From NCBI GenBank assembly GCA_049294475.1, contig JBAQCV010000021.1:1-45803 (forward strand): a DNA stretch of 45,803 nt, in the 5' to 3' direction. The notes under the pieces are model-generated. The model worked only from the letters and a program-made list of their open reading frames with translations. It was not told where the DNA came from and ran no database searches. Shown piece after piece: positions 1 to 12,893 of the stretch. The position numbers and the translations under genes are program-made. Numbering within the stretch: position 1 is the first letter of the stretch; the number at the start of each line of letters is the position of its first letter. Source of the stretch: Candidatus Moraniibacteriota bacterium. Lineage in GTDB: Bacteria > Patescibacteriota > Minisyncoccia > Moranbacterales > UBA1568.

Positions 1-1091
1 TGACACTGCTTCGCCCATGGAAATCCCATGGCCTGCAGAATATCGAACAAGACCTTGAAGTGATCATCCTGCTCGCATGCCACCACATAGATCGAGGCAT
101 CAAACGCATAGTCCTCGGCTTTCTTCACCGCTACGCCAAGATCCTGAGTCATATACACGCTCGTCCCATCACTCCGCAGCAGCACCCGCTTCTTCGGTAT
201 GCCATCTTTGCTGGTGCCGAATTTCTCTTCAGGGAGCATATACACGATGGCTCCTTTGTCATCCTTCGCGAAGATACCCTGCTCTACGCCTTTCTGGACG
301 ATGTCCTTCCCGAGCATATAGAGATCCGACTCGAAGTAGAACGCATCGAAAAGAAATCCGAGCTTCTCATAGGTCTCCGTGAAACCCGCATAGACCCACG
401 CGTTCATGGTCTTCCAGAGATTGATCGTTTCAGGATCTCCCTCTTCCCATTTCCGCAGGAGTGCTTGCGCCTCATCCTCGATCGTCGGATCATCTTTCGC
501 CACTTGAGCGAACTTGACGTAATACTCGCCGACAAAATGATCCCCTTTCTTCCCTGCGCTCTCCGGAGTTTCTCCGTTCGCAAACTTCTGCCATGCGAGC
601 ATCGACTTGCAGATATGCACGCCGCGATCATTGACGAGGTTCGCCTTGATGACAGTGTGACCCGTCCATGCAAGGATGTTCGAGATCGCCATCCCGAGAA
701 CGCCGTTACGCACATGCCCTAAGTGAAGCGGCTTGTTCGTATTCGGAGAGAGGTACTCGACCATGACAGTCTTCCCAACTGCCGAAACGGGCTCATTCGT
801 ACGGCATGCCGCTTCGAACAAAATACCATTTTTCAGCTTGGCATTGATGTACGGTCCCACAGCCTCATAGGTTGCGATGTCGTCTTCAGTCAAGTATCCA
901 ACCAGCTCCATCGCGATCACGGTCGGCGCCTTCTTGAACTGCTTTGCCAAAGCGAAACACTCGATAGCGAAATCACCGAACGACAGATCGGGAGGAATCA
1001 CTATTTTCACGGGTTCCGACGGTTGTTCACCGTACGCCGCAAAAACAGCATGATTCATCGCGGTCGCAAGTGCCTGTTCTATGCTCTTCAT
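1..1091 (-). CDS. argS: arginine--tRNA ligase, N-terminal part (gene continues past the left window edge)
   Basis: Absent from the ORF track because it is open at the edge. Hand translation from ATG at 1091 (GGAGG at 1097-1101, 5 nt upstream) gives MKSIEQALATAMNHAVF...VEYLSPNTNKPLHLGHVRNGVLG...NLVNDRGVHICKSMLAWQKF. This carries the class-I HIGH motif in ArgRS context, with no stop codon down to position 1. Confidence 0.85.
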   Translation of the reverse strand, partial: MKSIEQALATAMNHAVFAAYGEQPSEPVKIVIPPDLSFGDFAIECFALAKQFKKAPTVIAMELVGYLTEDDIATYEAVGPYINAKLKNGILFEAACRTNEPVSAVGKTVMVEYLSPNTNKPLHLGHVRNGVLGMAISNILAWTGHTVIKANLVNDRGVHICKSMLAWQKFANGETPESAGKKGDHFVGEYYVKFAQVAKDDPTIEDEAQALLRKWEEGDPETINLWKTMNAWVYAGFTETYEKLGFLFDAFYFESDLYMLGKDIVQKGVEQGIFAKDDKGAIVYMLPEEKFGTSKDGIPKKRVLLRSDGTSVYMTQDLGVAVKKAEDYAFDASIYVVACEQDDHFKVLFDILQAMGFPWAKQC

Positions 1092-1211: not shown

Positions 1212-2324
1212 TTAATTCCGTTTCAAGAAATCAATCAGTATCTCATACATCTCATATAGAGAATTCGTATCGACCCACTCTCCGCTCTGATGCAACCCTC
1301 CGCCTTTTGGCCTGAAAAGCGCCGCCGGAATACCATGTTCGGTAAAAAAAACCGCATCGCTTGTTCCGCTCTCGCACACGAATGAAATGTCTTTTTTCGT
1401 TCGCTCACGCAAGGTGTGTGCGAGCATTTGCACATAGTGATTCTTTTCTTCCGAAAAAAACACACCATTCTCGGCGATTACTTCAACCGCTCCTTTTCTC
1501 CCGATCGTTTTTCGTAGCAATGCTTTGATCCGGATCAAATCTTTTTTATTCACATATCGAATATCGAAATATGCGATAGCCAATCCCGGAACTTGGTTAG
1601 TGCTGTTGTTTGTCTCCACTTTTGTAAGTACTGCGCTGGTCCGCCACTCATTACGTTTGCTCGGATCCGGAAAGGTTTTCACAATCGTCTCCTGCAATCG
1701 CAGGACTTTGAGAAGTGCATTATCGCCATCCCATACATATGCCGCATGCGCGCTTTCCCCAAGCACCGTCACCTTGATCTGTGCAAATCCTTTCTGTTTC
1801 AATACTATTCCGGTATCATTGCCGCCATCGGCGATAAACGCGAAATCTCCACGATATCCTTCTTTTGCCAACAGCATCCGCGTCCCATGCCCCGTCGTCT
1901 CTTCATCGGACGTTATCATGATCGCAATCTCTTTGTCTCCGTATTTTTTCCGATATTCGACAGCGGCATAGATGCACGCGACGATACCGGCTTTCATATC
2001 ATATGCACCGCGGCCATACAGCTTCGCGCCTTTCATCATCGGTTTGAACATCGATTTCTCACCGGGCACGACGTCGATATGTCCTGAAAAAACGATGTCT
2101 ACTCTCTTTTTTGTGGTCGTTGATAAGACAAGAGCAGGATGACCGCGGAAAACATATCTCTTCACATAAAAATCTTTCTTGAAAGTACTCGCCAAAACAT
2201 CAAGGCAAGTTTCTTGTCCTCTGATATTTGATTCAATAGACTCGATCGCAATCAGACGTTCTGAGAGAGCAATGATCCGATTCTTTAATTCTTGTATCAT
2301 ACAAAACGGGTTATGAACTATCAA
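1212..2324 (-). CDS. M20 family metallopeptidase/deacylase (ArgE/DapE/PepD-like)
   Basis: 370-aa ORF with M20 metal and catalytic motifs GHIDVVPG, GRGAYDMKAG, SDEETTG and C-terminal GGGLHQSGEW. The TTG start at 2324 lies 1 nt after the upstream stop; an alternative ATG is at 2300. Confidence 0.8.
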   Translation of the reverse strand: MIVHNPFCMIQELKNRIIALSERLIAIESIESNIRGQETCLDVLASTFKKDFYVKRYVFRGHPALVLSTTTKKRVDIVFSGHIDVVPGEKSMFKPMMKGAKLYGRGAYDMKAGIVACIYAAVEYRKKYGDKEIAIMITSDEETTGHGTRMLLAKEGYRGDFAFIADGGNDTGIVLKQKGFAQIKVTVLGESAHAAYVWDGDNALLKVLRLQETIVKTFPDPSKRNEWRTSAVLTKVETNNSTNQVPGLAIAYFDIRYVNKKDLIRIKALLRKTIGRKGAVEVIAENGVFFSEEKNHYVQMLAHTLRERTKKDISFVCESGTSDAVFFTEHGIPAALFRPKGGGLHQSGEWVDTNSLYEMYEILIDFLKRN

Positions 2325-2325
2325 A

Positions 2326-3486
2326 CTACTTATTTTTCTCGACTCCTAGCCCAGGGGTGTTCGGGATATATGCTTTGAGCCCATCAAAGACCAGCCCCTT
2401 GAAAGGATCCCGTTTTATCTTGTCTGGTAACGTCAAGTCATGGCTGACAAAATTCCCCAGTGTCGCCGCATGCAGGTTTGCAGCCGTCCCGAGACTGGAG
2501 TGCAGCATATCCCCAAGCATATATTTCAGCTGATGCGCGTCACAGAAGTCAATCATTTTTTTTGCTTCGATGATTCCGCCACATTTGGCGAGCTTGATAT
2601 TTATCATATCGATCGATTTTCTCAGATACAGGTTTTCCAGATCCAAAATAGTATGGCAGCTCTCATCAGCCATTATCGGGATTCTTGTGTTTCTCCTGAT
2701 GTCTGCCAATCCCTCATAATCAGCATGATATATCGGCTGTTCAATCCATGCGATATTGAATTTTTCCAGTTTTTTTATCGCCTGAAGCGCATTCTCCGAA
2801 TTCTCCCATCCCTGATTGACATCAACGACAAAAGAGTATTCAGGATTTATTTTTGAAAGCCTGTCAAAGATCCTGACCAACGGATCGATGTCATTCCCTG
2901 CTTTGAATTTGAAATACGCAACACCTTGTTTGCTGATCTCCTCTATTTCTTTTTTCAGTTTGTGAAAATCATTTTCCTCAAAAGAAAATACCTTTTGCGA
3001 AGTGACATATTCCTTTTTTATCCCTCCAAACAGTTCGTATACCGGTTTATTTTTGAACTTTCCCAAAGCATCCAAAAGGGCGGCCTCCAGCCCGGCCTTC
3101 AGCGCCGTATTTCCATAAATATACTTCTTGGCTTCAGACAAGGTTTTTTCAACATCAGATACGCTCCCAATTCTTTTATTTTTCAATATCGGTTTGATGA
3201 TCGAATCAAACATTTCAATGCCTCCGTCCTGCATTTCGCCAGTCGTGTCCCAACCCAAAGCCGCCTCTCCATAACCGACTATTCCATTATCAAATCTGAC
3301 CGTGATGATTATATACGGCAAATGATTCAAAGTGGCCAAAAAATAAGAAAAGGGTCTTGCCAATCTTATGTCCGCTTTTTTGGCTTCAGCCCTTATTATT
3401 TTCATGGTATTGATAGTAACATGCCTAGTAAAAAAATCAAGGATAGTTGAATATAATTCAGCTATCCTTGCAATGGCCTGATTCAT
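2326..3486 (-). CDS. enolase-superfamily (MLE subgroup) dipeptide epimerase-like enzyme (L-Ala-D/L-Glu epimerase family)
   Basis: 386-aa ORF with the KxK motif (AYFKFKAG), metal ligands in VDVNQGW / IEQP / MADES, and a second catalytic Lys in INIKLAKCGG. The ATG at 3486 overlaps the upstream stop as ATGA; an alternative start is at 3405. Confidence 0.8.
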   Translation of the reverse strand: MNQAIARIAELYSTILDFFTRHVTINTMKIIRAEAKKADIRLARPFSYFLATLNHLPYIIITVRFDNGIVGYGEAALGWDTTGEMQDGGIEMFDSIIKPILKNKRIGSVSDVEKTLSEAKKYIYGNTALKAGLEAALLDALGKFKNKPVYELFGGIKKEYVTSQKVFSFEENDFHKLKKEIEEISKQGVAYFKFKAGNDIDPLVRIFDRLSKINPEYSFVVDVNQGWENSENALQAIKKLEKFNIAWIEQPIYHADYEGLADIRRNTRIPIMADESCHTILDLENLYLRKSIDMINIKLAKCGGIIEAKKMIDFCDAHQLKYMLGDMLHSSLGTAANLHAATLGNFVSHDLTLPDKIKRDPFKGLVFDGLKAYIPNTPGLGVEKNK

Positions 3487-4703
3487 AGCCTTTCGAGAGC
3501 TTGATCGAAGACCTCTCTGGCGTCATCCAACGATGTCGATGAGATACCAGTGATGTCGACATAACCGAATTCCATGACACCCGGATTGGTTACAATCACG
3601 AATGCTTTATTGTTCGGAGTCATAAGATCGGATAACTTTTTCTGAATCATGGAAAAAGCATCCTTTCCCTGAACTCCTTCGACTCGGTTATGTTTGTGAT
3701 GGAAGAAATGGTCGCCGCCATTAAAATGCACTTCTGCCATCCGCTTTGCCATGCTATGGGCATAGATTATAGCTCCCTTCCTCGGATTGAAATCAATCCA
3801 GTTGATCACTCCATTGCTGTCTATGATGATATCGCAGCAATAGAATCCCAATGCCTCTTTGCGTTTCAGAGTCGGAGCAAATATGCTCTCGAATTGATAC
3901 TTGATCAGCTCTTTTATCTTTCCAATCGATACCGGAAAATAGGCACCTGCATATCCGAAGTTAACCGCAAGCTGACCGAAGATGTCGACGATTTTCCATC
4001 CCCCATCAGCTGTCATCTCCCAATGCAGGGAAACTTCAGCTTCTTTGTCGTCAATAATCCTTTCCAACACCATGTTGCAGCCGAAATCGCCGATTCTTTG
4101 ATTGATGGCAATGATATCCTCATGGGATTCAATTTTCGCCATACCGTTGCAGGATATACCGCCGGTCCCGTCATCGGATTTCAACAAGAACCTGCCATGT
4201 TTCTCCAGAAAATGAGTGGCCTGCTGAAAAAAATGCTCCTTCTTTTCACACAGTTCCCATATCGGAGTCATAAGGCCGATTTCTTCAAACATCGACTTGA
4301 AGTGATGCTTGCGGGACAGAGGAAGCGAGACATCAAAATTACAGTAAGCTGGAATGCCGAGTTCTTGAGAAAGTTTCCTCTCCATCTCCTCGATCGTAAA
4401 AAATTCCAACCTTGCCTCATGACCATTGACCATCGTCTGCAAATCTTTCTTAAGCTGATTATTATTCATAATCAGCTCGGACAACGTGTATTGGGGATTG
4501 AAAGGTCCTGCCACAAGAAAGCGTGGCAGTTCGAATCCTATCCCCTCCCAATAGCGAAGGTATCCTTCATTAATTGGGTTAGTGGTAATAATCACATCGT
4601 CTTTACCAGCCTGGCAAAGTCCGCCCCGTTGGTCATAGTCCTGTTCCATTTCGACTCCACGGAACAGCCTGTTACTTTGTGAATCGATGATAACTCTGAT
4701 CAT
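3483..4703 (-). CDS. ATP-grasp ligase with pre-ATP-grasp N-terminal domain (PGM1-like peptide/amino-acid ligase)
   Basis: 406-aa ORF. The C-terminal half has ATP-grasp-like features (LLKSDDGTGG, and INWIDFNPRKG resembling the ExN Mg site). It has ATGA overlaps with both neighbours. Family assignment is by recall of PGM1-type proteins, not by search. Confidence 0.6.
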   Translation of the reverse strand: MIRVIIDSQSNRLFRGVEMEQDYDQRGGLCQAGKDDVIITTNPINEGYLRYWEGIGFELPRFLVAGPFNPQYTLSELIMNNNQLKKDLQTMVNGHEARLEFFTIEEMERKLSQELGIPAYCNFDVSLPLSRKHHFKSMFEEIGLMTPIWELCEKKEHFFQQATHFLEKHGRFLLKSDDGTGGISCNGMAKIESHEDIIAINQRIGDFGCNMVLERIIDDKEAEVSLHWEMTADGGWKIVDIFGQLAVNFGYAGAYFPVSIGKIKELIKYQFESIFAPTLKRKEALGFYCCDIIIDSNGVINWIDFNPRKGAIIYAHSMAKRMAEVHFNGGDHFFHHKHNRVEGVQGKDAFSMIQKKLSDLMTPNNKAFVIVTNPGVMEFGYVDITGISSTSLDDAREVFDQALERL

Positions 4704-5953
4704 GGCTTGTCACCTCCTATCATCTGTTCTATCAACGATTTCAAATCACCAGCTAAAATCGTCTTATTGACATAGAGAATCCTATCTTCCCTGACTGCAT
4801 GCTCGCCTACGAGCAGGTCAGGCCTTTTCTCCATCGCTTTCTGCGTCAGCAATTCAGCCAACGACGGCGCCACTTTCCGGATTCCGTCCATGTCTTTCAC
4901 GCCATGTCCGGTAAAACCGATAAGAATAACGTCGTTCTTGGAAAATCTTTCCTTATGCTTCAGGGCTGCTGCCAAACCCATGATTCCCGTTGGCTCAGGT
5001 ACGACTCCTTGTTCCACAAGATTGCCGTCTTTCGCCAACAGCTCATAGGCTAAGCCGAGATCCTCATTCAGAAGGTCACCCAAAGGGAAACCGCCAGAAA
5101 GGTACACGGCATGCATAAGCTGAGGCATGCTATAACTTGCGATGGCAATCGATCCCTCGGCCGCATCTATGGCGTGTTCGTCGACCCTGAACTCCTGATA
5201 TTCTTCCAGATATCCGCTTCCCTCGAATGCAATTTCCGTAGGAAACGCTCCAGCCATTCCGACTGGAACTATTTTGGGAAGCGTCGCGACCAAGCCATCC
5301 AAGGCCAGCGCGATACCGGCGAGATAGCTCCCGTTTCCGACTCCCGCAAGGATATGCGTCGGAATCGGATCGAGGCTCGCAATCTGTTCAGCTATCGGAG
5401 CAAAACCCGAAAGCAAAAACTCATTGCTCACATTGGCATTATAGAACCCTTCGAGATTCATTCCTGCCACCAGAGAATACACGTCCTCGAATATCGCTTC
5501 TTTCACTCCGACAACATAAACATTGCACATGGATGAGAGCATGCCGATCTTTGAAGATGTCGCCGGTATGAAGACAACGGCTCTTGCTCCGTTCTTGACA
5601 ACATATTTTGCCAGCGAAACAGCATGATTACCCGATGAAACGATGAAAAATACTTCGTGTCCGGATTCACGACCGAGCTTCACGGCCCTCTCGACGCTAT
5701 AGTCTTTCATGCTTCCGGAAAAATTCATGCCCTCGTCTCTGACATAAACTTTTCCAACGCCAAGGGTTTCGGCGATGACCTCCGACTCATAAATCGGAAC
5801 AGGCCTCAAGTCACGGTTTATACCATACTCGACCCCGAGCGGCCACATCAGCCCATAATGTTTGATGTCATGGTGAAACGAACTTTTGTGAAGGTCGACT
5901 GAATGTCCGTCGACAACACAATTACATATCAAACAACGAAATTGTTTGTCCAC
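4700..5953 (-). CDS. fold-type II PLP-dependent enzyme, threonine synthase/cysteine synthase-like, with N-terminal Cys/His cluster
   Basis: 417-aa ORF with a PLP-lysine motif FSGSMKD (compare GSFKDR), SSGNHA, Gly-rich loop GVGNGS and PEPTG. The N-terminus reads CLICNC..H..H..HH. It has a GTG start with GGAGGTG about 5 nt upstream. Confidence 0.75.
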   Translation of the reverse strand: MDKQFRCLICNCVVDGHSVDLHKSSFHHDIKHYGLMWPLGVEYGINRDLRPVPIYESEVIAETLGVGKVYVRDEGMNFSGSMKDYSVERAVKLGRESGHEVFFIVSSGNHAVSLAKYVVKNGARAVVFIPATSSKIGMLSSMCNVYVVGVKEAIFEDVYSLVAGMNLEGFYNANVSNEFLLSGFAPIAEQIASLDPIPTHILAGVGNGSYLAGIALALDGLVATLPKIVPVGMAGAFPTEIAFEGSGYLEEYQEFRVDEHAIDAAEGSIAIASYSMPQLMHAVYLSGGFPLGDLLNEDLGLAYELLAKDGNLVEQGVVPEPTGIMGLAAALKHKERFSKNDVILIGFTGHGVKDMDGIRKVAPSLAELLTQKAMEKRPDLLVGEHAVREDRILYVNKTILAGDLKSLIEQMIGGDKP

Positions 5954-6150
5954 GAAACACCTCCAGTTTTGAGTTACGTCACAGTGGGATTACAAGCGTA
6001 TGAGTCGCAGACGAAGCTGAGCCTAGTACATAAGCGTCGTCCTAATGAATACAGGCCTTAATTAAGATGCGGATGGTCTCAATTTACATATCGCTATTCT
6101 ATTGTTAAAGGACGCCTTCCTACAATATGCCGCAAAAGCGACAACAATAC

Positions 6151-6179
6151 AAATTAGCTCTGTTTTTGAAAAAAGTCAA
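6151..6179 (-). promoter_or_regulatory. sigma70-like promoter for the PLP/ATP-grasp/epimerase/M20 operon
   Basis: On the minus strand, TTGACT (6179-6174) is followed by a 17-nt spacer and TAATTT (6156-6151). This leaves a leader of about 190 nt before the GTG at 5953. Confidence 0.5.
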
Positions 6180-6188
6180 CCCCTTAAT

Positions 6189-6215
6189 CAAAAACAAACG
6201 ACCATGGGGTCGTTT
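6189..6215 (-). terminator. rho-independent terminator
   Basis: The minus strand reads AAACGACC-CCAT-GGTCGTTT followed by GTTTTT, an 8-bp stem with a 4-nt loop. It sits immediately upstream of the operon promoter. Confidence 0.6.
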
Positions 6216-6456
6216 GATAATATTTTAAATAATTTCGCTTATTTCAAACATTAACAAATGACTCCTGATATAGCTTTCAGGCTTCGACGCCGCCACAATA
6301 TAATTATCTGAATTTCCTTATCCAAATATCCCATATGCTTCTTAATATAGTTTACCTGTTTATTCACATGATACCATATTAAGCAAAACGGTCAATGATC
6401 TCAGCTACGGGTCATACTCACGCTGGCTTTGAAACAAACTCTTGATGTTGCATTAC

Positions 6457-6625
6457 AAAAAAACCACCGTGTCAACCCCGTTAGATATCCGGGGAACACC
6501 AGTTGGTACAGCATATAGAGCCACCAGGCGACTTTGTCTCGTAAGCGTCAAACACAACACTCCCAAGCAAGATATCTCACGGGGTCAATCACCAGTGGCT
6601 CTTTTTGGCTTGAATAAGGGATACT
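6457..6625 (-). repeat. copy A of a ~56-bp terminator-containing repeat, interrupted by an insertion
   Basis: Segments 6457-6475 plus 6589-6625 match 8491-8546 with 3 mismatches (aaaaaaaccaccgtgtcaa|tcacNagtggctctttttggcttgNataagNgatact). Confidence 0.85.
6476..6584. mobile_element. MITE-like 109-bp insertion in a terminator loop
   Basis: Terminal inverted repeats ccccgttagatatc (6476-6489) and gatatctcacgggg (6571-6584) match 13/14. It is flanked by TCAA at 6472-6475 and 6585-6588. An uninterrupted 'empty site' exists at 8498-8519. No coding capacity is evident. Confidence 0.6.
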
Positions 6626-6698
6626 TTCTCTCAGAAGCTGCTCTCAACACCGAAACAAGCCTTTATTCCGAAAGGGGTCGGACAGAAAAGTCGTCAAA

Positions 6699-7420
6699 TC
6701 ACAATTTTCTCAATTTAGACAGTATTTCTTCTCGAGCACTCTCAATAAATTTCTGGTAGTCAGTATCGGAAGAAGGCATATCAATCGATTCTATAACGCT
6801 CATTGAATTCTTCCCATCGACGGATAATGTTGGAGACGAGACACCAAGTACTATTTTCTGAAAATTCAAAGCTCTAGCTAGATTCAAGAAGCCCGACTTA
6901 AAGGGTAACATCTCAGCTTCCCCTGTCGATTTTCCTTCCGGATATATAACAATAGAGTTCCCTGGGGTGTATTGTTCTATAATCTCATTAAATCTATTGT
7001 TGGAACCTCTGGTTATTATTATGTGCCAACATTCCTCCATCGCTTCTCGCCAACCATTATCCAACGAAACTGTTGAGAACGGCCTTTTTAGAAGTTTTTT
7101 TAACATCAATTGGCGTATAAGCGGGTAATTGAATCTATCGAATCCAAAAGTATTTCCACCTTTGACATTTTGTATTTTTTCTGCAGGTATGCTAAGAGAC
7201 CGATCAAGCTTTGGATGATTTGAGATAAAAATCACTGGGTCGCTGATTTTTGAAAGGACGTCTTTTTCATCAGTAACGGTAGTTACGATAGCTTTTTCAA
7301 TTTCCTCGGCTAGCGTATCGAATTTTTTGATCCTAAAAAATATTCCTCAACTAGATTAAGATAATTCTCCTCTGTTTCACTTTTATTTTCCGATTTGTTC
7401 GGTATGAGGAATTCTTTCAT
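6699..7420 (-). pseudogene. acyltransferase-like gene (PlsC/LPLAT-like) split by a -1 frameshift
   Basis: The track ORF 6699-7235 (VIFISNHPKLD..., IYPEGKST) stays open upstream to 7346 without a start codon. A 36-codon ORF from ATG 7420 (MKEFLIPNKSENKSETEENYLNLVEEYFLGSKNSIR*) joins it in the -1 frame at the T6/A run 7335-7340. The H-to-D spacing in the catalytic motif is non-canonical. Confidence 0.5.
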
Positions 7421-7474
7421 AGCAAGACATATAGGCACCTATAAACAAAGTTACCCGTAATGTGTTTATTTATT

Positions 7475-8236
7475 TCATATATCACCCAGCCATTTTGACA
7501 TAATGTTGCCAATTTCATCAAGGTGAGCCTCATCTTTAAATACGTGACTGGCACTTTTTATTATATGCAGCTCTTTTTTGCCAGGCAGTTGCTCAAAGAA
7601 AATCTTTTGATGGGAGACAGGAGTGGTCAAATCCTGATCCCCTACTATCAAAAGAACTGGCATAGTCAGTTTCTCGACATTATTCAACAAATCGTATTTC
7701 ATAATATCTTCAGCGAAAGCCCATTTTAGAATTTTTTGCTTACCAGAACTGGAATTGCTCGCTTCTCTTATCCAAATACCTTTCTTTTCCCAATTTTCAA
7801 GCATCTCTTTGTCTTGGGCTTGCCTCCATAGTGTACCGGAAACGACGACAGATACTGGAACGAGAGCTTTTACTTCATTCGGATATTTCTCCGCGAAAAG
7901 CGATATTGATAATCCTCCTATGCTATGCCCAGCCAGTACGAACGGATCTTTGTATTGGAAATTATCCTTAGCCCAACCTATCACATCTTCCAAATCCTCA
8001 TAATAATTGGTTGTGGTAGCGTCGGAATAATTCCCATCGCTCTTTCCAAATGTGTTTGTGGTATCAAAACTTATAACGGTATAGCCATTCTCTTTCAAAA
8101 CATCCGCTAGTACACGTATGTGCAACTGTTCCTTGAATCCTCCCAGACCATGCGTAACGAATGCCAGACTGGAAGTATTTTCATTTTTATCTATAACAAC
8201 GGATATATTCTGGCCTTTTCTATTTTTTATGATCAT
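7475..8236 (-). CDS. alpha/beta-fold serine hydrolase
   Basis: 253-aa ORF with oxyanion motif THGLGG, nucleophile elbow GHSIGG, acid GDQD and His in SASHVF. Confidence 0.8.
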   Translation of the reverse strand: MIIKNRKGQNISVVIDKNENTSSLAFVTHGLGGFKEQLHIRVLADVLKENGYTVISFDTTNTFGKSDGNYSDATTTNYYEDLEDVIGWAKDNFQYKDPFVLAGHSIGGLSISLFAEKYPNEVKALVPVSVVVSGTLWRQAQDKEMLENWEKKGIWIREASNSSSGKQKILKWAFAEDIMKYDLLNNVEKLTMPVLLIVGDQDLTTPVSHQKIFFEQLPGKKELHIIKSASHVFKDEAHLDEIGNIMSKWLGDI

Positions 8237-8490
8237 GAGTTATTTGTTAGTAGATTAAGAAGAAAATAAGTCAAGTACCGAGAGCGGGGTATAGATCCCG
8301 AAATCCACCGCAGACTGGACTGTCTCAGGTTTCGTTTCCTCCATTTTCTTCCCATCCGTCATAAATACCCTGTCATATCAATACTCTCATAGAGAAATAT
8401 TCTTCAGGATAACCAACAAAAATCCTTTTGTATTGGAAAAGGCTTTTCTAAAGCAATTATATCACAAAACCAGAACACCAATTATACACC

Positions 8491-8527
8491 AAAAAAACCA
8501 CCGTGTCAATCACGAGTGGCTCTTTTT
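8491..8527 (-). terminator. rho-independent terminator downstream of the Fic gene (intact copy B of the repeat; repeat extends to 8546)
   Basis: The minus strand reads CCACTCGTG-ATTGA-CACGGTGG followed by TTTTTTT. Confidence 0.75.
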
Positions 8528-8634
8528 GGCTTGGATAAGAGATACTGTTCCTTACCCGCCCGGGTGATTTCCGCCTCAACTATCTCTATTGAAGTATGAT
8601 TTTGAAAAAGTCAGCATGGACCTAAATATTTCCT

Positions 8635-9699
8635 TTAAACTTTGACGTAGCGCGTCGCACGGCCGCGACCAACTCTTTTAATTTCGCCCAGTTCGACGAG
8701 ACGATCCAATGCTTGGCGGACTGTTCCCAGTGCCATATCGGTCGCTTTCACAATCTCGCCAGGAGCCGCTTCTTTGACGCTAGAGAGATACTTCCAAACC
8801 TCATGTTGTTTGGGCGAAAGCGTATCTTCAATTTTCTCTGCCTGCAGATACGAGAGTGCTTTTGTAGCTTGCTCCTGCACAACGGAAAGGAAGAAATTGA
8901 GCCACGGTGAAATGGTGTCGTGATCGGTTTTGAATGTCTCCTGCGATTTGCGGAGCGCGATGTAATATTCGTCCTTGCGGCGCTCGATGATCTGCTCATG
9001 CGAGACATACTGGACGAAAGTGTAGCCGGAACGGAGCAGAAGCAGATTTGAGATGACGCGTGAAAGACGTCCATTTCCATCTTCAAATGGGTGAATTTTC
9101 AGAAACTCAACAATAAAATTGGCGATGATAAGAAGCTGGTGGAAACGATGCTTCTCAAGGGCGTCGGCAGTCCAGTCAACGAGTTCCTGCATTTCTTTGC
9201 CGGTGAGATACGCTGGCGTGGTCTCGAACATTATTTTTACAACCTTGCCGTCCGGCCCTACTACGCCGACTGTGTTTTCTTTCTTTTTGTAGCCTCCGCG
9301 GTGCGTGTCGTCCTTATTCGAATATTTAAGAAGCTGATTATGCAGGGAGGTAATCACACTCTCCCGAAGCGGCAGAGTCTGAAAGCTGTCGAACACATTT
9401 TGAAGCGTTTCGAGATAGCCCTGCACTTCCTGTGAATCACGATCTGCAAATTTAGAGGCCGCTAGACCGTGCATAACTTTCTCCACTTCCTCGTCATTGA
9501 GCTTTGCCCCCTCGATACGAGTAGATGCTCCAGCAGAAGTGATCAGTGTCGATCTCTTGAGGTTGGTAATTGCCCGAGGTGTCATTCTCAAGCCCCCCTT
9601 AAATTCACCACGAATCCCGTCAATTTCAGCCAAAAGAGCCACGATATGCGGATCGGGATTTTTTATGCGATGATCAAATTTTCTGGTGATATCGTCCAT
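8635..9699 (-). CDS. Fic family protein (class II, N-terminal inhibitory motif) with C-terminal winged-helix domain
   Basis: 354-aa ORF with the Fic core HPFEDGNGRLSRV, an inhibitory-helix motif STRIEG (S/TxxxEG/N), and a C-terminal wHTH-like segment (LGTVRQALDRLVELGEIKRVGRGRATRY). Confidence 0.9.
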   Translation of the reverse strand: MDDITRKFDHRIKNPDPHIVALLAEIDGIRGEFKGGLRMTPRAITNLKRSTLITSAGASTRIEGAKLNDEEVEKVMHGLAASKFADRDSQEVQGYLETLQNVFDSFQTLPLRESVITSLHNQLLKYSNKDDTHRGGYKKKENTVGVVGPDGKVVKIMFETTPAYLTGKEMQELVDWTADALEKHRFHQLLIIANFIVEFLKIHPFEDGNGRLSRVISNLLLLRSGYTFVQYVSHEQIIERRKDEYYIALRKSQETFKTDHDTISPWLNFFLSVVQEQATKALSYLQAEKIEDTLSPKQHEVWKYLSSVKEAAPGEIVKATDMALGTVRQALDRLVELGEIKRVGRGRATRYVKV

Positions 9700-9736
9700 A
9701 AATGCTGATTTTATGGCTTAATTTAACGCTATGCCA

Positions 9737-9766
9737 TATATAGCCGATTATAACGGATTATAGCGG
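9737..9766 (-). promoter_or_regulatory. three phased TATAAT-like decamers upstream of the Fic gene
   Basis: The minus strand reads CCGCTATAAT CCGTTATAAT CGGCTATATA, an exact 10-bp period, 38-67 nt upstream of the Fic ATG. Confidence 0.4.
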
Positions 9767-9816
9767 ATAGAGCAAGCCGTCAGGTGTTAAAAACTAACCC
9801 AGTTAAGAAAAGGGGG

Positions 9817-10440
9817 TCAAATCGTCTGGACAATCACTTCTCCATCTTTCAGCCCACGGAACGGCATACCGTTCTTTTTGTAAAACTCTACAACTTTTTC
9901 GATAGCTTCAGACTCGGGATGCTTCGATTGATAGTGTGGCGCAAAAGAGAAATCAACCAGGCCGACTCCATCCCAAATCACTTCCTGTTCATATCCTGCG
10001 GGAACGATCATCGGATCATCGACGAGTTCAACACCCTTCAGTGTGGGACCGATGACACTCACGCCGGCACTATACCCGGCATAGACAATGCTATCACCAG
10101 AAGCGAATTCCCGAAGGATCTCGTCCAAACCGCTCTGGTGCATCGCCCGCCTCAAGATGAATGAGTTTCCTCCACGGACCCAGATGAGGCCGCATTTCTT
10201 AAGCCTGTTCTTGAGCTCCTCCTTTTTTCCAAAATAGCGCCGAAGATCAACCTCTTCAGCGATCAGACCGATGGCAGACAATTCATCAAATTCCCGCTGC
10301 CGACCTTTCGCTAGTCGGTCCTGATCGGTGGAAAAATCGAGAGCATTAGAAATGACGGCCACCCTTTTGTTCTCGCCTAAGAGTTCCGACAACTGCTCCG
10401 GGCTATCACCAAGGCGATAGGAAGAAAGATAGAGTATCAT
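9817..10440 (-). CDS. peptidase S51 (dipeptidase E-like) / class I glutamine-amidotransferase-fold protein
   Basis: 207-aa ORF with VRGGNSFILRRAM and YAGYSAGVSV (Ser nucleophile context). Length and layout resemble PepE. Confidence 0.7.
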   Translation of the reverse strand: MILYLSSYRLGDSPEQLSELLGENKRVAVISNALDFSTDQDRLAKGRQREFDELSAIGLIAEEVDLRRYFGKKEELKNRLKKCGLIWVRGGNSFILRRAMHQSGLDEILREFASGDSIVYAGYSAGVSVIGPTLKGVELVDDPMIVPAGYEQEVIWDGVGLVDFSFAPHYQSKHPESEAIEKVVEFYKKNGMPFRGLKDGEVIVQTI

Positions 10441-10689: not shown

Positions 10690-12831
10690 TCAGGAGAGCA
10701 TCTTCATCACGTTCGCGATGAGATGCAGCCCCAGATCATCCTTGAGGGTCAGGAGCGATTCCGGATGGAACTGCACACCGGCGATCGGATGCACCTTGTG
10801 CTGCACCGCCATGATAGTCCCATCCTCGGTACGCGCCAGAACTTCGAGACACTTCGGTAGGGTATCCTCCACGGCATAGAGCGAATGATACCGCCCCGCC
10901 ATGAACTCCATTGGCAGTCCGCACAGGATCCCCTGCTGTGTGGAGCGAACAAGTGATCCGACACCGTGAGCCGGATGCTCAAGCACTCCCAATATACCGC
11001 TGAACGCCTCCACTATCCCTTGCAGTCCGAGACAGACGCCGAACACCGGTATGCCGCGCTTCACACATTCCATTACCAGACTCGGCACTCCGAAATCAGC
11101 AGGCCTCCCAGGTCCCGGAGAAATGACCACCACGTCCGGTCGCGACTCATCGAGCAGCGAATAATTGAACCCGGCTCTCTGTGTCGTCACCGCGGCACCC
11201 GTCTGCCTCACGTAATCACCAAGCGTGTGTACGAACGAATCGCGGTTGTCGACGAGCAGGACTTTTTTTCCCGCGCCCGTCCGAATATCCGTTCCGATAC
11301 CCACAGCGACTGCCTTCGATCGACCCAGCACGGCGTCCATAAAAGCGCTGGCTTTGAGACGTGTTTCCGCTTCTTCTGATTCCGGATCAGAATGTGCGAG
11401 CAGAGTAGACCCTACCCGGACAGATGCCACTCCATCCTCGAGATGCACGGTGCGGATAGTGATTCCCGTCTTGATATCACCGTTGCAAAGAAGCATCCCG
11501 ACGCAACCGCCATACCAGCGCCGCGCGGAGTTCTCGAGGTTCTCGATCATCTGCATCGCCGCCGGTTTCGGTGCACCAGTCAGCGTCCCTGCCCACATAT
11601 GCGCGAGCAACGCATCGAATGCGTCATACGGCTGGCGCAATTCGCCGACCACATGATCCACGGTATGAAACAACCGGGAGTACGCCTCGATGAGACACCG
11701 CTCGATGATTTTCACCGTGCCTGCCTCGCATACTCGCGCCTTGTCGTTGCGATCGACATCTGTGCACATAGTCAGTTCAGCCCTGTCTTTCTCCGAATTG
11801 AGCAATGTGAGACGCTGTTCCTCGTCTTCGATAGCCGTCTTCCCACGCCTGATCGTACCGGATATCGGACACGTTTCCACGCGCGAACCTTCCACCTGAA
11901 CGAACATCTCCGGCGACGCGCCGACCAACTGCTCGCTGCCGAGGTTGATGAGAAACTCATACGGACTCGGATTCGTACGGCGGATCGTTTCGAAGAGCGC
12001 GCTCGGCATGCCGGAGAAACCGGCAGAGAGCACCTGACTTAACACTACTTCGAAAAACTCGCCGCGCCGCGCTCCTCTGATGATCTCTTCTACCTTTTTG
12101 ACGTACTCACCTGGTTTGTGGTCGCTCGTCTCCTGCGAATACGTACCGGGACGAAACGGTATTGCCTCACCGGTGCGCGGCAACCCGGCCGTATCATATT
12201 CTCCCGACCGGAAATCGTACCGGTAGCGATGGGCGCGTTCCTTGCGATGATCCACGACAACGAGTTCGTCCGGCAAGAACAGGTGCAGATCCGGACGATC
12301 TTCGGACCGCAGATGGCGCAATACTATCGGCTCGACCTGAAAGACCAAGTCGTAACCGAACGCGCCGTAGAAACCAAAATGCTGATCCTCTGCGTGGCCG
12401 AACTGCCAGACCAGCGTACGCAATACGCTGAAGATAGTCGGTTGATGCAGACGATCTTCTTCCGAGAACGACGCTGACATCGGCGCCACCTGGCCAGTCA
12501 GCGTATCTCCGGAACGGATAATGTCTCCGACGATGTGCGGGTGATTCTCCAGGACGGTGCGGAAGACAAGAAGCAGAATCCTGCCGCGTTCATTGAGCGC
12601 ACGGATCACAAATCGCCGTCCGTATCCCATGAACTCGATAGGCGGATCCACGAAACCGATGTCCCATCGGCTATAACGTCCCGGATATTCGTACCCGCTC
12701 GCGAAAATCGCACCGCAGTGAGTATCGATCGCACCGTGTACGCGCTGCAACGCTGATTCCAGCGGCACCTCCTCCACAGAACGGGTGATAGACACTCCGC
12801 CATTGGTGCGGTATTGAGTGATGATTGGCAT
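10690..12831 (-). CDS. trpE: fused anthranilate synthase TrpE(G) (chorismate-binding component I + glutamine amidotransferase)
   Basis: The N-terminal part matches my recollection of rhizobial TrpE(G): YEYPGRYSRWD, GAFGYDLVFQ, LFLPDELVVVDH, SPYEFLINLG, CPISGT. The C-terminal GATase has FGVCLGLQ and VQFHPES. ATG at 12831 has AGGAGA 6 nt upstream, so the track's earlier start is unlikely. Confidence 0.88.
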   Translation of the reverse strand: MPIITQYRTNGGVSITRSVEEVPLESALQRVHGAIDTHCGAIFASGYEYPGRYSRWDIGFVDPPIEFMGYGRRFVIRALNERGRILLLVFRTVLENHPHIVGDIIRSGDTLTGQVAPMSASFSEEDRLHQPTIFSVLRTLVWQFGHAEDQHFGFYGAFGYDLVFQVEPIVLRHLRSEDRPDLHLFLPDELVVVDHRKERAHRYRYDFRSGEYDTAGLPRTGEAIPFRPGTYSQETSDHKPGEYVKKVEEIIRGARRGEFFEVVLSQVLSAGFSGMPSALFETIRRTNPSPYEFLINLGSEQLVGASPEMFVQVEGSRVETCPISGTIRRGKTAIEDEEQRLTLLNSEKDRAELTMCTDVDRNDKARVCEAGTVKIIERCLIEAYSRLFHTVDHVVGELRQPYDAFDALLAHMWAGTLTGAPKPAAMQMIENLENSARRWYGGCVGMLLCNGDIKTGITIRTVHLEDGVASVRVGSTLLAHSDPESEEAETRLKASAFMDAVLGRSKAVAVGIGTDIRTGAGKKVLLVDNRDSFVHTLGDYVRQTGAAVTTQRAGFNYSLLDESRPDVVVISPGPGRPADFGVPSLVMECVKRGIPVFGVCLGLQGIVEAFSGILGVLEHPAHGVGSLVRSTQQGILCGLPMEFMAGRYHSLYAVEDTLPKCLEVLARTEDGTIMAVQHKVHPIAGVQFHPESLLTLKDDLGLHLIANVMKMLS

Positions 12832-12893
12832 AACACTTCTCCTGTGAAAAAGATAGATTGTCAAAGAACTGCTCTGTACGAAGAGTTACAAAC

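What the first reader, a model, noticed from the sequence alone, without database searches (positions are those of the whole stretch)
1212..6179. Translationally coupled ThrC-like PLP enzyme / PGM1-like ATP-grasp / dipeptide epimerase / M20 peptidase operon of unassigned function
Seen in sequence: four minus-strand genes are packed with ATGA start/stop overlaps at 4700-4703 and 3483-3486 and a 1-nt gap at 2325. They sit behind their own TTGACT-17-TAATTT promoter and a leader of about 190 nt. Motifs support a fold-type II PLP enzyme (SGSMKD, SSGNHA, GVGNGS) with an N-terminal CLICNC..H..H cluster. They also support an ATP-grasp ligase with a pre-ATP-grasp-like N-terminus, an MLE-subgroup enolase-superfamily epimerase (KxK, D/E/D ligands, second Lys) and an M20 metallohydrolase.
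Established knowledge: PGM1/L-amino-acid-ligase ATP-grasps form peptide bonds non-ribosomally. YcjG/YkfB-type epimerases invert the C-terminal residue of dipeptides. M20 includes PepD, DapE, ArgE and LysK.
Inference: the set could build a small dipeptide or non-proteinogenic amino-acid product containing a D-residue (antimetabolite-like). Alternatively it could be a salvage route for muropeptide stems (epimerase + M20 as in L-Ala-D-Glu recycling) extended by a ligase and a beta/gamma-replacement enzyme. I do not recall a characterised pathway with this exact four-gene composition.
Basis: partly seen in the sequence, partly recalled or inferred. Interest (0 to 1): 0.75.

Follow-up and report, generated by a model that had tools for sequence, protein, structure and literature searches.

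The report
Arginine-linked acylate–racemise–deacylate operon
In a tiny-genome (CPR, Moranbacteria-like) bacterium, four tightly packed genes next to the arginyl-tRNA synthetase gene most likely flip the handedness of arginine or a close relative by attaching an acyl tag with ATP, racemising the tagged molecule and cutting the tag off. This is an uncharacterised variant of a known D-to-L amino-acid conversion route, with one enzyme (a threonine-synthase-like PLP protein) still unexplained.

Summary
The two proposed functions (antimetabolite dipeptide, muropeptide salvage) are not supported. The window is a Moranbacteria-like CPR contig. The module recurs in about 20 CPR/metagenome loci in the same order, almost always beside argS (in the window at 3-1091) and often beside ArgG, ArgE-like, ArgA-like, arginine decarboxylase and arginase-family genes. 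In close relatives (PLP 77-83% identical) a canonical acyl-CoA GNAT sits in the ligase slot. Elsewhere the ligase pairs with an M20 or an AstE/aspartoacylase-type deacylase, or is fused to arginine deiminase. All 21 readable "epimerase" orthologues keep the catalytic residues but lack Arg24 and the second Asp that typify L-Ala-D/L-Glu epimerases, as does the N-succinyl-Arg racemase (PDB 2P88). Best reading: N-acylation of arginine or a near relative, racemisation of the N-acyl amino acid, then deacylation. This is an ATP-grasp-driven variant of the GNAT + N-succinylamino-acid racemase + M20 pathway. Substrate, direction and the PLP step remain inferred. New variant of a known kind; interest about 0.6.

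The parts
6195..6216 (-). Intrinsic-terminator-like hairpin (9-bp stem, T-run) that insulates the operon from upstream genes
   Evidence: Conserved, with compensating changes, in relative L065.
6151..6179 (-). Candidate promoter: TTGACT, 17 nt, TAATTT
   Evidence: Sequence. Weak -10, so not listed by the scan. The region is nearly identical in L065.
5954..6150 (-). 5' leader of about 190 nt. The first ~60 nt or so are conserved and include the inverted repeat TATTGTT (6149-6143) / AACAATA (6106-6100). There is no evidence for a riboswitch.
   Evidence: No Rfam family. Fold z-score +0.36. 70 nt of the 3' part is absent in L065.
4700..5953 (-). ThrC-like fold-type II PLP enzyme (417 aa) with an N-terminal C2H2-like beta-beta-alpha zinc-finger motif. 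Not a threonine synthase; its reaction is unresolved.
   Evidence: PF00291 94 bits. All NCBIfam ThrC models are far below cutoff. Foldseek: ThrC 2zsj TMq 0.62, CapA2 9k3c TMq 0.70. Family invariants. The ThrC phosphate-binding Arg, Ser and Thr are replaced.
3483..4703 (-). PGM1/BesA-like ATP-grasp ligase (406 aa); proposed ATP-dependent N-acylating enzyme
   Evidence: PF18604 30 bits. AF2 pLDDT 95. Foldseek: BesA 8yi6 TMq 0.80, 8ynd, PGM1 3wvq/3wvr, 7r8q. Invariant D304/N306/R308 and others. The slot is shared with a GNAT.
2326..3486 (-). MLE-subgroup enolase-superfamily racemase/epimerase (386 aa); proposed N-acyl-amino-acid (N-acyl-Arg) racemase
   Evidence: MR_MLE_N/C. Best PDB hit 2p88 (NSAR2) 170 bits, YkfB 165 bits. 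Catalytic residues kept; Arg24 and Asp323 absent in 21/21 readable orthologues.
1212..2324 (-). M20 (DapE/ArgE-like) metallo-deacylase (370 aa if TTG 2324, 362 aa if ATG 2300)
   Evidence: PF01546 and PF07687. DapE/ArgE models 150-155 bits, below cutoffs. All DapE metal and catalytic positions kept.
3..1091 (-). Arginyl-tRNA synthetase gene (N-terminal 363 aa; runs off the contig end), a conserved neighbour of the module
   Evidence: Translation with the HIGH motif PLHLGH. tblastn 42-54% to ArgRS of 10 module loci and 75% to L065. Host-like GC3 of 0.65.

Best explanation
The four genes, functionally linked to the adjacent argS, form an 'acylate, racemise, deacylate' module acting on arginine or a very close basic relative. 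Step 1 (inferred): the PGM1/BesA-like ATP-grasp ligase activates a carboxylic acid as an acyl phosphate and transfers it to the alpha-amino group of the amino acid, giving an N-acyl amino acid. In sister operons a canonical acyl-CoA GNAT does this job in the same gene slot. Step 2 (inferred from residues and nearest relatives): the enolase-superfamily enzyme uses its Mg2+ site and two catalytic lysines to invert C-alpha of the N-acyl amino acid, like the N-succinyl-Arg racemase BC0371 (NSAR2), rather than acting as a free-amine dipeptide epimerase. Step 3 (inferred from family): the M20 deacylase removes the acyl group from one enantiomer. By family precedent this is the L form, so that the ATP spent in step 1 makes the net D-to-L conversion irreversible and delivers L-Arg to ArgRS and arginine metabolism. 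Step 4 (unresolved): the ThrC-like PLP enzyme always accompanies the racemase, is arginine-linked in an independent lineage, and has lost the phosphate-binding residues of threonine synthase. It must act on the free amino acid before or after the cycle. Shown here: folds, catalytic residues, gene order, co-occurrence, slot swapping and the fusion. Inferred: the substrate, the acyl group, the direction and every reaction.
For: (1) Same order PLP-LIG-EPI-M20 in 18 PLP+LIG loci, 15 with EPI (the other 3 are truncated contigs), plus L064 and L065. (2) In-situ displacement: L033 (PLP 83%, EPI 75% identical to the window), L062/L063 (77%), L031, L028, L029 and L043 carry a PF00583 GNAT with the acyl-CoA motif QGxGxG where the ligase sits. 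No alignment column of EPI separates the two operon types. GNAT + N-succinylamino-acid racemase + M20 is the published D-to-L pathway (Sakai 2006, cited in PMC12006748), and DgcN-DgcA is a second 'irreversible racemization' precedent (PMC12363236). (3) EPI: 21/21 readable orthologues keep K160/K162/D191/E219/D244/K268 but lack R24 and D323. [quoted passage not shown] The best PDB match 2p88 is the NSAR2 structure. (4) Without PLP and EPI, the ligase pairs with a deacylase: M20 (L002, L012-14, L025) or AstE/aspartoacylase family (L020, L022). (5) Arginine link: ArgRS lies within 6 kb in 13/18 LIG-type and 3/5 GNAT-type loci, on either side and in either orientation, including the window and L065. 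ArgG is in L064; ArgE-like plus ArgA-like pairs recur; arginine decarboxylase and arginase-family genes appear; ArgA and AstA-like genes flank the ligase in Planctomycetes. A core-family ligase is fused to a full-length arginine deiminase domain. A PRMT-type gene sits in PLP operon L039. (6) BesA, the top structural match, installs a removable gamma-glutamyl handle. (7) The M20 keeps all DapE catalytic residues.
Against: There is no biochemical datum. The amino acid, the acyl group and the direction are all inferred. A D-to-L salvage route needs only three enzymes, so the obligatory PLP partner is unexplained. The ligase's nearest structures (BesA, PGM1, S. aureus SAOUHSC_02373) join amino-acid carboxylates, so the product could be dipeptide-like. 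EPI scores almost equally against 2p88 (170 bits) and YkfB (165 bits), and it keeps the first Asp of DxD plus a further conserved Asp (GDM) that could bind an ammonium group. M20 stereospecificity is assumed from DapE/ArgE. Part of the argS adjacency within CPR could be inherited synteny (ProRS also recurs). No source of D-Arg for these organisms is known. Several loci lack an adjacent M20 of the window type.
Confidence: 0.5

Rival explanations
1. AST-like protecting-group pathway. The ligase (or GNAT) makes N2-acyl-arginine as an ATP-dependent counterpart of AstA. The acylated arginine is then processed on its guanidino or side chain (deiminated to acyl-citrulline or acyl-ornithine) and finally deacylated by the M20 or AstE-like enzyme. 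The racemase only funnels the D-form into this route. The purpose is arginine catabolism or interconversion, not chirality repair.
For: A ligase-arginine deiminase fusion, P0333/L066. AstA-like and ArgA neighbours in Planctomycetes. An AstE/aspartoacylase-type deacylase follows the ligase in L020 and L022. Recurrent ArgE-like/ArgA-like pairs and ArgG.
Against: The window operon and most quartets contain no guanidino-modifying enzyme. The racemase and PLP enzyme are the invariant partners in this operon type. The fusion occurs in a ligase-only context without PLP or EPI.
Confidence: 0.2
2. Small-molecule (antimetabolite-like) biosynthesis. The PLP enzyme makes a non-proteinogenic amino acid, the ligase couples it to a second amino acid, the epimerase generates a D-residue, and the M20 trims or activates the product. 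The logic parallels the beta-ethynylserine (PLP BesB, then BesA, then tailoring on the dipeptide) or D-cycloserine pathways, and argS would then be a resistance or supply gene.
For: The nearest ligase structures are natural-product peptide ligases. The PLP-then-ligase order mirrors the Bes pathway. The PLP enzyme belongs to a replacement/elimination fold and has lost ThrC specificity. In Desulfobacterota-type loci PLP or LIG sit with methyltransferases and radical-SAM genes.
Against: The module is found mainly in minimal CPR genomes among housekeeping genes. There is no transporter or regulator in the block. The ligase is interchangeable with an acyl-CoA GNAT in close relatives, which fits a simple N-acyl tag rather than a specific dipeptide. 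The window's argS has host-like codon usage, and nothing suggests a second, divergent copy.
Confidence: 0.12
3. Muropeptide-stem salvage: an L-Ala-D/L-Glu-type epimerase plus an M20 dipeptidase recycle cell-wall dipeptides, extended by a ligase and a PLP enzyme.
For: The best NCBIfam hit of EPI is the Thermotoga L-Ala-D/L-Glu epimerase model (172 bits). YkfB scores 165 bits. The window also carries murein genes.
Against: The score is far below the model cutoff of 500. Arg24, which binds the Glu side chain, and the second Asp of DxD are absent in 21/21 orthologues. The murein genes are more than 20 kb away. Conserved neighbours are arginine genes, not Mpl/LdcA/AmpD-type recycling genes.
Confidence: 0.05

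Closest known systems
Geobacillus kaustophilus D-to-L conversion pathway: succinyl-CoA:D-amino-acid N-succinyltransferase (GNAT) + N-succinylamino-acid racemase (NSAR) + M20 N-succinyl-L-amino-acid hydrolase (Sakai et al. 2006, Biochemistry 45:4455; cited in PMC12006748)
   Same: The logic and two of the three protein families are the same: an enolase-superfamily racemase acting on an N-acyl amino acid, flanked by an acylating enzyme and an M20 deacylase. Sister operons of the window (L031, L033, L043, L062) have exactly GNAT + racemase + M20.
   Different: In the window the acylating enzyme is an ATP-grasp ligase (ATP, not acyl-CoA). The racemase belongs to the AEE/NSAR2 branch, not the NSAR/OSBS branch. 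A ThrC-like PLP enzyme is an obligatory extra member. The module is linked to argS and arginine genes. Stereospecificities are untested.
BC0371 of Bacillus cereus, N-succinyl-Arg/Lys racemase (SFLD family NSAR2; PDB 2P88/2P8B/2P8C; Song et al. 2007)
   Same: It is the best PDB sequence match (170 bits). Both sit near the L-Ala-D/L-Glu epimerases yet lack Arg24 and the second Asp of DxD (window D-L-T, BC0371 E-L-T). Both carry acidic residues in the 50s loop.
   Different: The relationship is remote (comparable to YkfB, 165 bits). The window family has a conserved Asp after strand 7 (GDM) where BC0371 has Ser. The substrate is not tested.
DgcN-DgcA irreversible racemisation of D-glutamate via N-acetyl-D-Glu (PMC12363236; NCBIfam NF042940)
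   Same: N-acylation followed by an enolase-superfamily N-acyl-amino-acid racemase; an energy-consuming, directional racemisation.
   Different: It acts on acidic amino acids. EPI scores 123 bits against a cutoff of 400. DgcN is not an ATP-grasp enzyme.
BesA (beta-ethynylserine pathway) and PGM1 (pheganomycin): pre-ATP-grasp-domain ligases
   Same: Fold (TMq 0.71-0.80) and the N-terminal pre-ATP-grasp domain. BesA attaches a removable gamma-glutamyl handle that the next enzyme requires.
   Different: 12-16% identity. No PGM1_C domain detected. The context is housekeeping and arginine metabolism in CPR rather than actinomycete secondary metabolism. The acyl donor is unknown.
Arginine succinyltransferase (AST) pathway: AstA and AstE (established knowledge)
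   Same: N2-acyl-arginine is the central intermediate. AstA-like and AstE/aspartoacylase-like genes neighbour the ligase in Planctomycetes and Saccharibacteria, and an ADI-superfamily domain is fused to one ligase (compare AstB).
   Different: There is no AstB/C/D set in the window. Acylation would use ATP, not succinyl-CoA. AST has no racemase or ThrC-like enzyme.
D-cycloserine pathway (DcsD fold-II PLP synthase, DcsC racemase, DcsG ATP-grasp, DcsB arginase-like); recalled from memory, not checked here
   Same: It combines a fold-type II PLP enzyme, a racemase, an ATP-grasp enzyme and an arginine connection.
   Different: The protein families differ (a DapF-like racemase and a Ddl-like ATP-grasp that cyclises). 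It is a Streptomyces antibiotic cluster. GNAT substitution would not make sense there.

Membership tests
PGM1-like / pre-ATP-grasp ATP-grasp ligases | N-terminal pre-ATP-grasp domain (PF18604) | tested here: met
   30.0 bits against a cutoff of 27.5, residues 30-117. Most homologues carry the same precomputed hit.
PGM1-like / pre-ATP-grasp ATP-grasp ligases | Overall ATP-grasp three-domain fold similar to PGM1 or BesA | tested here: met
   AF2 pLDDT 95. Foldseek: 8yi6 TMq 0.80, 8ynd 0.71-0.78, 3wvq/3wvr 0.71-0.77, E about 1e-18 to 1e-21.
PGM1-like / pre-ATP-grasp ATP-grasp ligases | Conserved nucleotide/Mg2+-binding residues | tested here: inconclusive
   Invariant K132, K175, E214, D291, D304, P307, R308 and K309, with N306 in at least 90% of 33 sequences, fit the ATP-grasp D/E-x-N-x-R pattern. 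They were not mapped onto a ligand-bound structure.
PGM1-like / pre-ATP-grasp ATP-grasp ligases | PGM1 C-terminal domain (PF18105) | tested here: not met
   No PF18105 hit for the window protein. It is seen only in a more distant relative, P0365.
PGM1-like / pre-ATP-grasp ATP-grasp ligases | Ligation of an amino-acid or guanidino-acid carboxylate to an amine | not testable with these tools
   Needs enzyme assays.
L-Ala-D/L-Glu (dipeptide) epimerases, YkfB/YcjG type | MLE-subgroup catalytic set: KxK, Asp/Glu/Asp metal ligands, second Lys | tested here: met
   K160, K162, D191, E219, D244 and K268 equivalents are present in the window and in all 21 readable orthologues.
L-Ala-D/L-Glu (dipeptide) epimerases, YkfB/YcjG type | Arg24, which binds the Glu side-chain carboxylate | tested here: not met
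   Ala in the window; A/L/V/G/S in all orthologues.
L-Ala-D/L-Glu (dipeptide) epimerases, YkfB/YcjG type | DxD motif (Asp321, Asp323), which binds the dipeptide N-terminal ammonium (role recalled from Lukk 2012 and Klenchin 2004, papers not held) | tested here: not met
   D-L-T in the window. The second Asp is absent in 21/21 orthologues (T or F).
L-Ala-D/L-Glu (dipeptide) epimerases, YkfB/YcjG type | Curated NCBIfam equivalog score | tested here: not met
   NF041118 172 bits against a cutoff of 500; NF011708 75 against 343.
N-succinylamino-acid racemase 2 (BC0371 type) | AEE-like sequence that lacks the AEE-specific residues | tested here: met
   Best PDB hit is 2p88, the NSAR2 structure. Pattern G/E/T in BC0371 versus A/D/T in the window. 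PMC2948282 describes the missing residues.
N-succinylamino-acid racemase 2 (BC0371 type) | Racemisation of N-succinyl-Arg/Lys | not testable with these tools
   Needs an assay (deuterium exchange or polarimetry).
Threonine synthase | PLP-Lys and the S-x-G-N loop of fold type II | tested here: met
   K83 in SGSMKD and SSGNHA, invariant in the family.
Threonine synthase | O-phosphohomoserine phosphate ligands (T. thermophilus T88, S155, R160; identities recalled from Omi 2003, numbering consistent with the alignment) | tested here: not met
   H110, V175 and Leu at the Arg position. Family consensus SSGNH / NANVSNExLL.
Threonine synthase | Curated NCBIfam score | tested here: not met
   Best hit NF004996 72 bits against a cutoff of 266.
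M20 DapE/ArgE deacylases | Di-zinc ligands and catalytic Glu (HiDapE H67, D100, E134, E135, E163, H349) plus dimerisation-domain His194 | tested here: met
   GHIDVV, GAYDMK, SDEE, IADGG (Asp for Glu163, as in 2rb7), SAHAAY and GLHQSGE aligned to 3ic1/5vo3.
M20 DapE/ArgE deacylases | Curated equivalog or subfamily score | tested here: not met
   NF009557 155 bits against 284; TIGR01910 151 against 217.6. A divergent subfamily; the best PDB hit, 2rb7, has unknown function.
N-acyl racemisation ('irreversible D-to-L') pathway | Co-located acylating enzyme + enolase N-acyl-amino-acid racemase + deacylase | tested here: met
   The window has ligase-EPI-M20. Sister operons have GNAT-EPI-M20.
N-acyl racemisation ('irreversible D-to-L') pathway | D-specific acylation and L-specific deacylation | not testable with these tools
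   Requires stereospecific assays.

The most novel reading that the evidence does not exclude
The zinc-finger-bearing ThrC-like PLP enzyme and the N-acyl racemase are the core of a previously unknown arginine-derivative pathway widespread in CPR bacteria. In it the PLP enzyme would perform new chemistry on arginine or an arginine analogue, for example making or consuming D-arginine or a modified arginine needed for the envelope, signalling or protection of ArgRS. The PGM1-like ATP-grasp family would be a general 'ATP-driven N-protecting-group' enzyme for organisms short of acyl-CoA, functionally interchangeable with GNATs.
Probability: 0.25. Interest if true: 0.8.

Novelty: new variant of a known kind. 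Interest (0 to 1): 0.6.

Why it matters
CPR/Patescibacteria have minimal metabolism and depend on scavenged amino acids, yet many lineages keep this four-gene block glued to argS. If the model holds, it would be the first case of an ATP-grasp ligase standing in for an acyl-CoA transferase in an N-acyl-racemisation cycle. It would assign functions to three unannotated families: at least 77 ligase clusters and 105 PLP clusters at 90% identity, and an NSAR2-like racemase clade. It would also point to D-arginine or N-acyl-arginine metabolism as a physiological need of ultra-small bacteria. The model gives concrete, cheap in-vitro tests. The in-situ GNAT/ATP-grasp swap is a clean natural example of non-orthologous displacement that could be used in biocatalytic deracemisation without CoA.

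Tried and rejected
(1) Riboswitch or T-box in the leader: no Rfam hit at gathering or E<=5, fold z = +0.36, and 70 nt absent in L065. Rejected.
(2) Sequence search of the ligase against PDB: only a chance-level PurD hit. The fold search was needed.
(3) Covariation 'GDM in ligase-type versus GSM in GNAT-type racemases', which would have implied an ammonium-bearing acyl group. It held for 13 sequences but failed with more: L033, L043 and L062 are GNAT-type with GDM, and no column separates the types. Rejected.
(4) The GNAT as an aminoacyl-tRNA-dependent (Fem/ATE-like) arginyl transferase, which would explain argS: the proteins match PF00583 and carry the acyl-CoA motif QGxGxG. Rejected.
(5) A genuine threonine synthase or cysteate synthase: below all curated cutoffs and phosphate ligands lost.
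(6) Horizontally acquired island as the explanation for the low GC. The module has lower GC3 (0.47-0.53) than the host genes (0.57-0.73), and PLP and EPI are far more similar to L004 than ArgRS is. But L065 shares both the layout and a 75%-identical ArgRS, so any exchange predates the split of these two lineages. Left as an observation.
(7) Literature searches for an existing description of the block found precedents but no description.
(8) Lukk 2012 and Kalyanaraman 2008 could not be read.

Full report
OBSERVATION. Four minus-strand ORFs occupy 1212-5953 exactly as described. The PLP/ligase junction is an ATGA overlap preceded by AGGAGG. The ligase/epimerase junction is a second ATGA overlap. 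The M20 gene starts either at TTG 2324, one base after the epimerase stop, or at ATG 2300. Upstream lie a strong terminator hairpin (6216-6195) and TTGACT-17-TAATTT. The consensus scan does not list this promoter because its -10 is weak, but the whole segment is nearly identical in the closest relative L065. The leader matches no Rfam family and folds no better than shuffled sequence (z = +0.36). It also lacks 70 nt in L065, so nothing supports a riboswitch.

WHAT THE PROTEINS ARE.
- PLP enzyme. It scores PF00291 94 bits, but every threonine-synthase model is far below its cutoff. The AF2 model (pLDDT 92) is closest to threonine synthases (TMq about 0.6) and to CapA2 (0.70). The Schiff-base Lys and the S-x-G-N loop are kept. 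The positions aligned to T88, S155 and R160 of T. thermophilus ThrC are His, Val and Leu; I recall these as phosphate ligands from Omi 2003. It therefore belongs to a distinct family (105 clusters at 90% identity, all at least 40% identical to the query). It carries an N-terminal C-x2-C-x11-H-x4-H beta-beta-alpha element resembling a C2H2 zinc finger.
- Ligase. Only PF18604 reaches threshold, and sequence search of the PDB finds nothing. The AF2 model (pLDDT 95) matches BesA, a Streptomyces ATP-grasp peptide ligase, PGM1 and S. aureus SAOUHSC_02373 at TMq 0.65-0.80. A profile search of 1.84 billion representatives finds about 22 full-length core-family clusters inside a superfamily of about 1,500 clusters.
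- Epimerase. It has MR_MLE_N/C domains and all catalytic residues. All 21 readable orthologues lack Arg24 and the second Asp of the DxD motif of YkfB. The best PDB match is 2p88, the only structure of the SFLD family NSAR2. [quoted passage not shown]
- M20. It is DapE/ArgE-like but below the curated cutoffs, and it keeps every DapE metal and catalytic position.

ORGANISM AND SURROUNDINGS. The window is a whole 45.8-kb NCBI MAG contig. Its LepA is 87-91% identical to Candidatus Moranbacteria/Patescibacteria proteins. The rest of the window is housekeeping on one strand: LepA, MurJ, YceG, SHMT, rhamnose genes, a Mur ligase, a PBP and RsmH. The module and the next ~4 kb upstream have lower GC than the rest.

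COMPARATIVE GENOMICS. A pattern scan of 185,579 species representatives found the ligase in 24 loci. Most are Patescibacteria, with some Desulfobacterota, Spirochaetales and Planctomycetota. Pooling these with loci reached through individual homologues and a metagenome scan anchored on the PLP family gives the counts below.

| Locus type | Loci | With EPI | With ArgRS within 6 kb |
|---|---|---|---|
| PLP + ligase | 18 | 15 (3 truncated contigs) | 13 |
| PLP + GNAT | 5 | 5 | 3 |

The order PLP-LIG-EPI-M20 is fixed. L064, L065 and L062/L063 add to this.

Three findings change the interpretation.
1. In situ displacement. In L033 (PLP 83%, EPI 75% identical to the window), L062/L063 (77%), L031, L028, L029 and L043, a PF00583 GNAT with the acyl-CoA motif QGxGxG occupies the ligase slot. 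The racemase shows no type-specific column. The two enzymes therefore probably make the same or a very similar N-acyl product.
2. Deacylase partners. Where PLP and EPI are absent, the ligase is paired with a deacylase. This is either an M20 that is 56-64% identical to the window's (L002, L012-L014, L025), or an AstE/aspartoacylase-family enzyme (L020, L022).
3. An arginine theme from independent directions.
   - ArgRS lies on either side and in either orientation. In the window and L065 it is downstream of the M20; in most CPR loci it is upstream of PLP; in Planctomycetes it is within about 4.3 kb of the ligase.
   - Argininosuccinate synthase is present in L064.
   - ArgE-like plus ArgA-like pairs recur.
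   - Arginine decarboxylase and arginase-family genes are present.
   - ArgA and an AstA-like gene flank the ligase in Planctomycetes.
   - A core-family ligase is fused to a full-length arginine deiminase domain on a 136-kb contig.
   - A PRMT-type arginine methyltransferase homologue sits in a PLP operon of another lineage.

MECHANISM. GNAT + N-succinylamino-acid racemase + M20 hydrolase is the published route for irreversible D-to-L conversion (Sakai 2006, cited in PMC12006748). DgcN-DgcA is a second 'irreversible racemization' route (PMC12363236). BesA shows that this ligase fold can install a removable acyl handle needed by the next enzyme. I therefore propose three steps. The ligase N-acylates arginine or a near relative at the expense of ATP. 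The enolase enzyme racemises the N-acyl amino acid. The M20 releases one enantiomer, by family precedent the L form. All reaction steps, the substrate, the acyl group and the direction are inferences.

The PLP enzyme is the weak point of the model. It always accompanies the racemase, yet a D-to-L cycle does not need it. The only reaction of this fold documented on arginine itself is racemisation, in serine-racemase homologues (PMC11850409). Arginine has no beta or gamma leaving group, so a ThrC-type reaction would require an arginine analogue as substrate.

RIVALS.
- AST-like protecting-group route, in which N-acyl-arginine is further transformed. It is supported by the ADI fusion and the AstA/AstE-like partners, but no such enzyme is in the window. 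Confidence 0.2.
It is supported by the natural-product relatives of the ligase and the PLP-then-ligase logic. It is weakened by the CPR housekeeping context, the absence of an exporter and the GNAT substitution. Confidence 0.12.
- Muropeptide salvage. It is contradicted by the missing specificity residues and by the context. Confidence 0.05.

COMPARISON AND NOVELTY. The module works like the NSAR pathway, but it differs in four respects:
- the acylating enzyme is an ATP-grasp ligase;
- the racemase lies on the NSAR2-like branch;
- an extra PLP family is an obligatory member;
- the module is anchored to arginine genes and argS.

None of the four proteins reaches a curated equivalog cutoff. The homologues are annotated only as 'hypothetical', 'ATP-grasp domain-containing', 'threonine synthase' or 'PLP-dependent lyase/thiolase'. 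Seven literature searches found no description of the block. I rate it a new variant of a known kind. It is interesting because it is conserved in minimal genomes and is directly testable.

LIMITS. Locus sets come from pattern-based scans and are lower bounds. Some MAG taxonomic labels may be binning errors, for example the two 'Gammaproteobacteria' loci that show CPR-type synteny. The roles of YkfB Arg24/DxD and of the ThrC phosphate ligands are recalled from the primary literature, which I could not read here. The residue positions themselves were checked on alignments.

Noticed in passing
window 5830-5953 (minus strand; residues 1-40 of the PLP enzyme): The N-terminal C7-x2-C10-x11-H22-K23-x3-H27 element is predicted as a beta-hairpin plus helix, resembling a C2H2 zinc finger fused to a fold-type II PLP enzyme. 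It is conserved in most of the family, but the second Cys is lost in the clade P0169-P0176 (GNAT-type operons L028/L029).
   Followed up: partly
window 6100-6149 (minus strand): The inverted repeat TATTGTT (6149-6143) ... AACAATA (6106-6100) lies immediately downstream of the candidate -10 and is conserved in L065. It could be an operator or a 5' stem-loop of the transcript.
   Followed up: partly
window 6217-6698: About 480 nt with no convincing ORF lie between the terminator and the truncated acyltransferase gene. There is no Rfam match and nothing was established.
   Followed up: no
window 6699-10440: A low-GC accessory stretch: a truncated PlsC-type acyltransferase (GC 0.38), an alpha/beta hydrolase (GC 0.39), a Fic protein and an S51 PepE/cyanophycinase-family peptidase. 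The Fic protein is at least 90% identical to proteins from Vogel-, Yonath-, Lloyd- and Komeilibacteria and an Anaerolineaceae MAG, which suggests recent horizontal spread.
   Followed up: partly
window 10690-12864 (minus strand): A 724-aa fusion of a chorismate-binding enzyme and a class-I glutamine amidotransferase (TrpE-TrpG or PabB-PabA type) in a CPR genome, where aromatic and folate biosynthesis genes are usually scarce.
   Followed up: no
L066 8001-10391: A single 796-aa ORF fuses a core-family ATP-grasp ligase (residues 6-397) to a full-length arginine deiminase domain (residues 401-795).
   Followed up: yes
L030, L039, L045, L047, L048; L011, L015, L016, L018, L019: In Desulfobacterota-type loci a PF04392 'ABC substrate-binding' protein sits next to the PLP enzyme (PLP - NNMT-like methyltransferase - SBP - PRMT-like) or directly upstream of the ligase (SBP - LIG; in Desulfonema magnum preceded by a B12-radical-SAM enzyme and a methyltransferase). 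This is a third, different use of the same two families.
   Followed up: partly
L051 3448-6041 and L052 470-3063: Tandem PLP genes: a divergent member of the family (37% identical) followed by a second PALP protein. In L052 an ArgRS-like gene lies 1 kb further on.
   Followed up: no
window 1212-2324 compared with other loci: The window's M20 is closer to the M20 of ligase-only pairs in Saccharibacteria and Paceibacterota (56-64%) than to the M20 of most quartets (40-44%). L001, L006 and L031 use a PepT-like M20 instead, so the deacylase slot has been refilled several times.
   Followed up: partly
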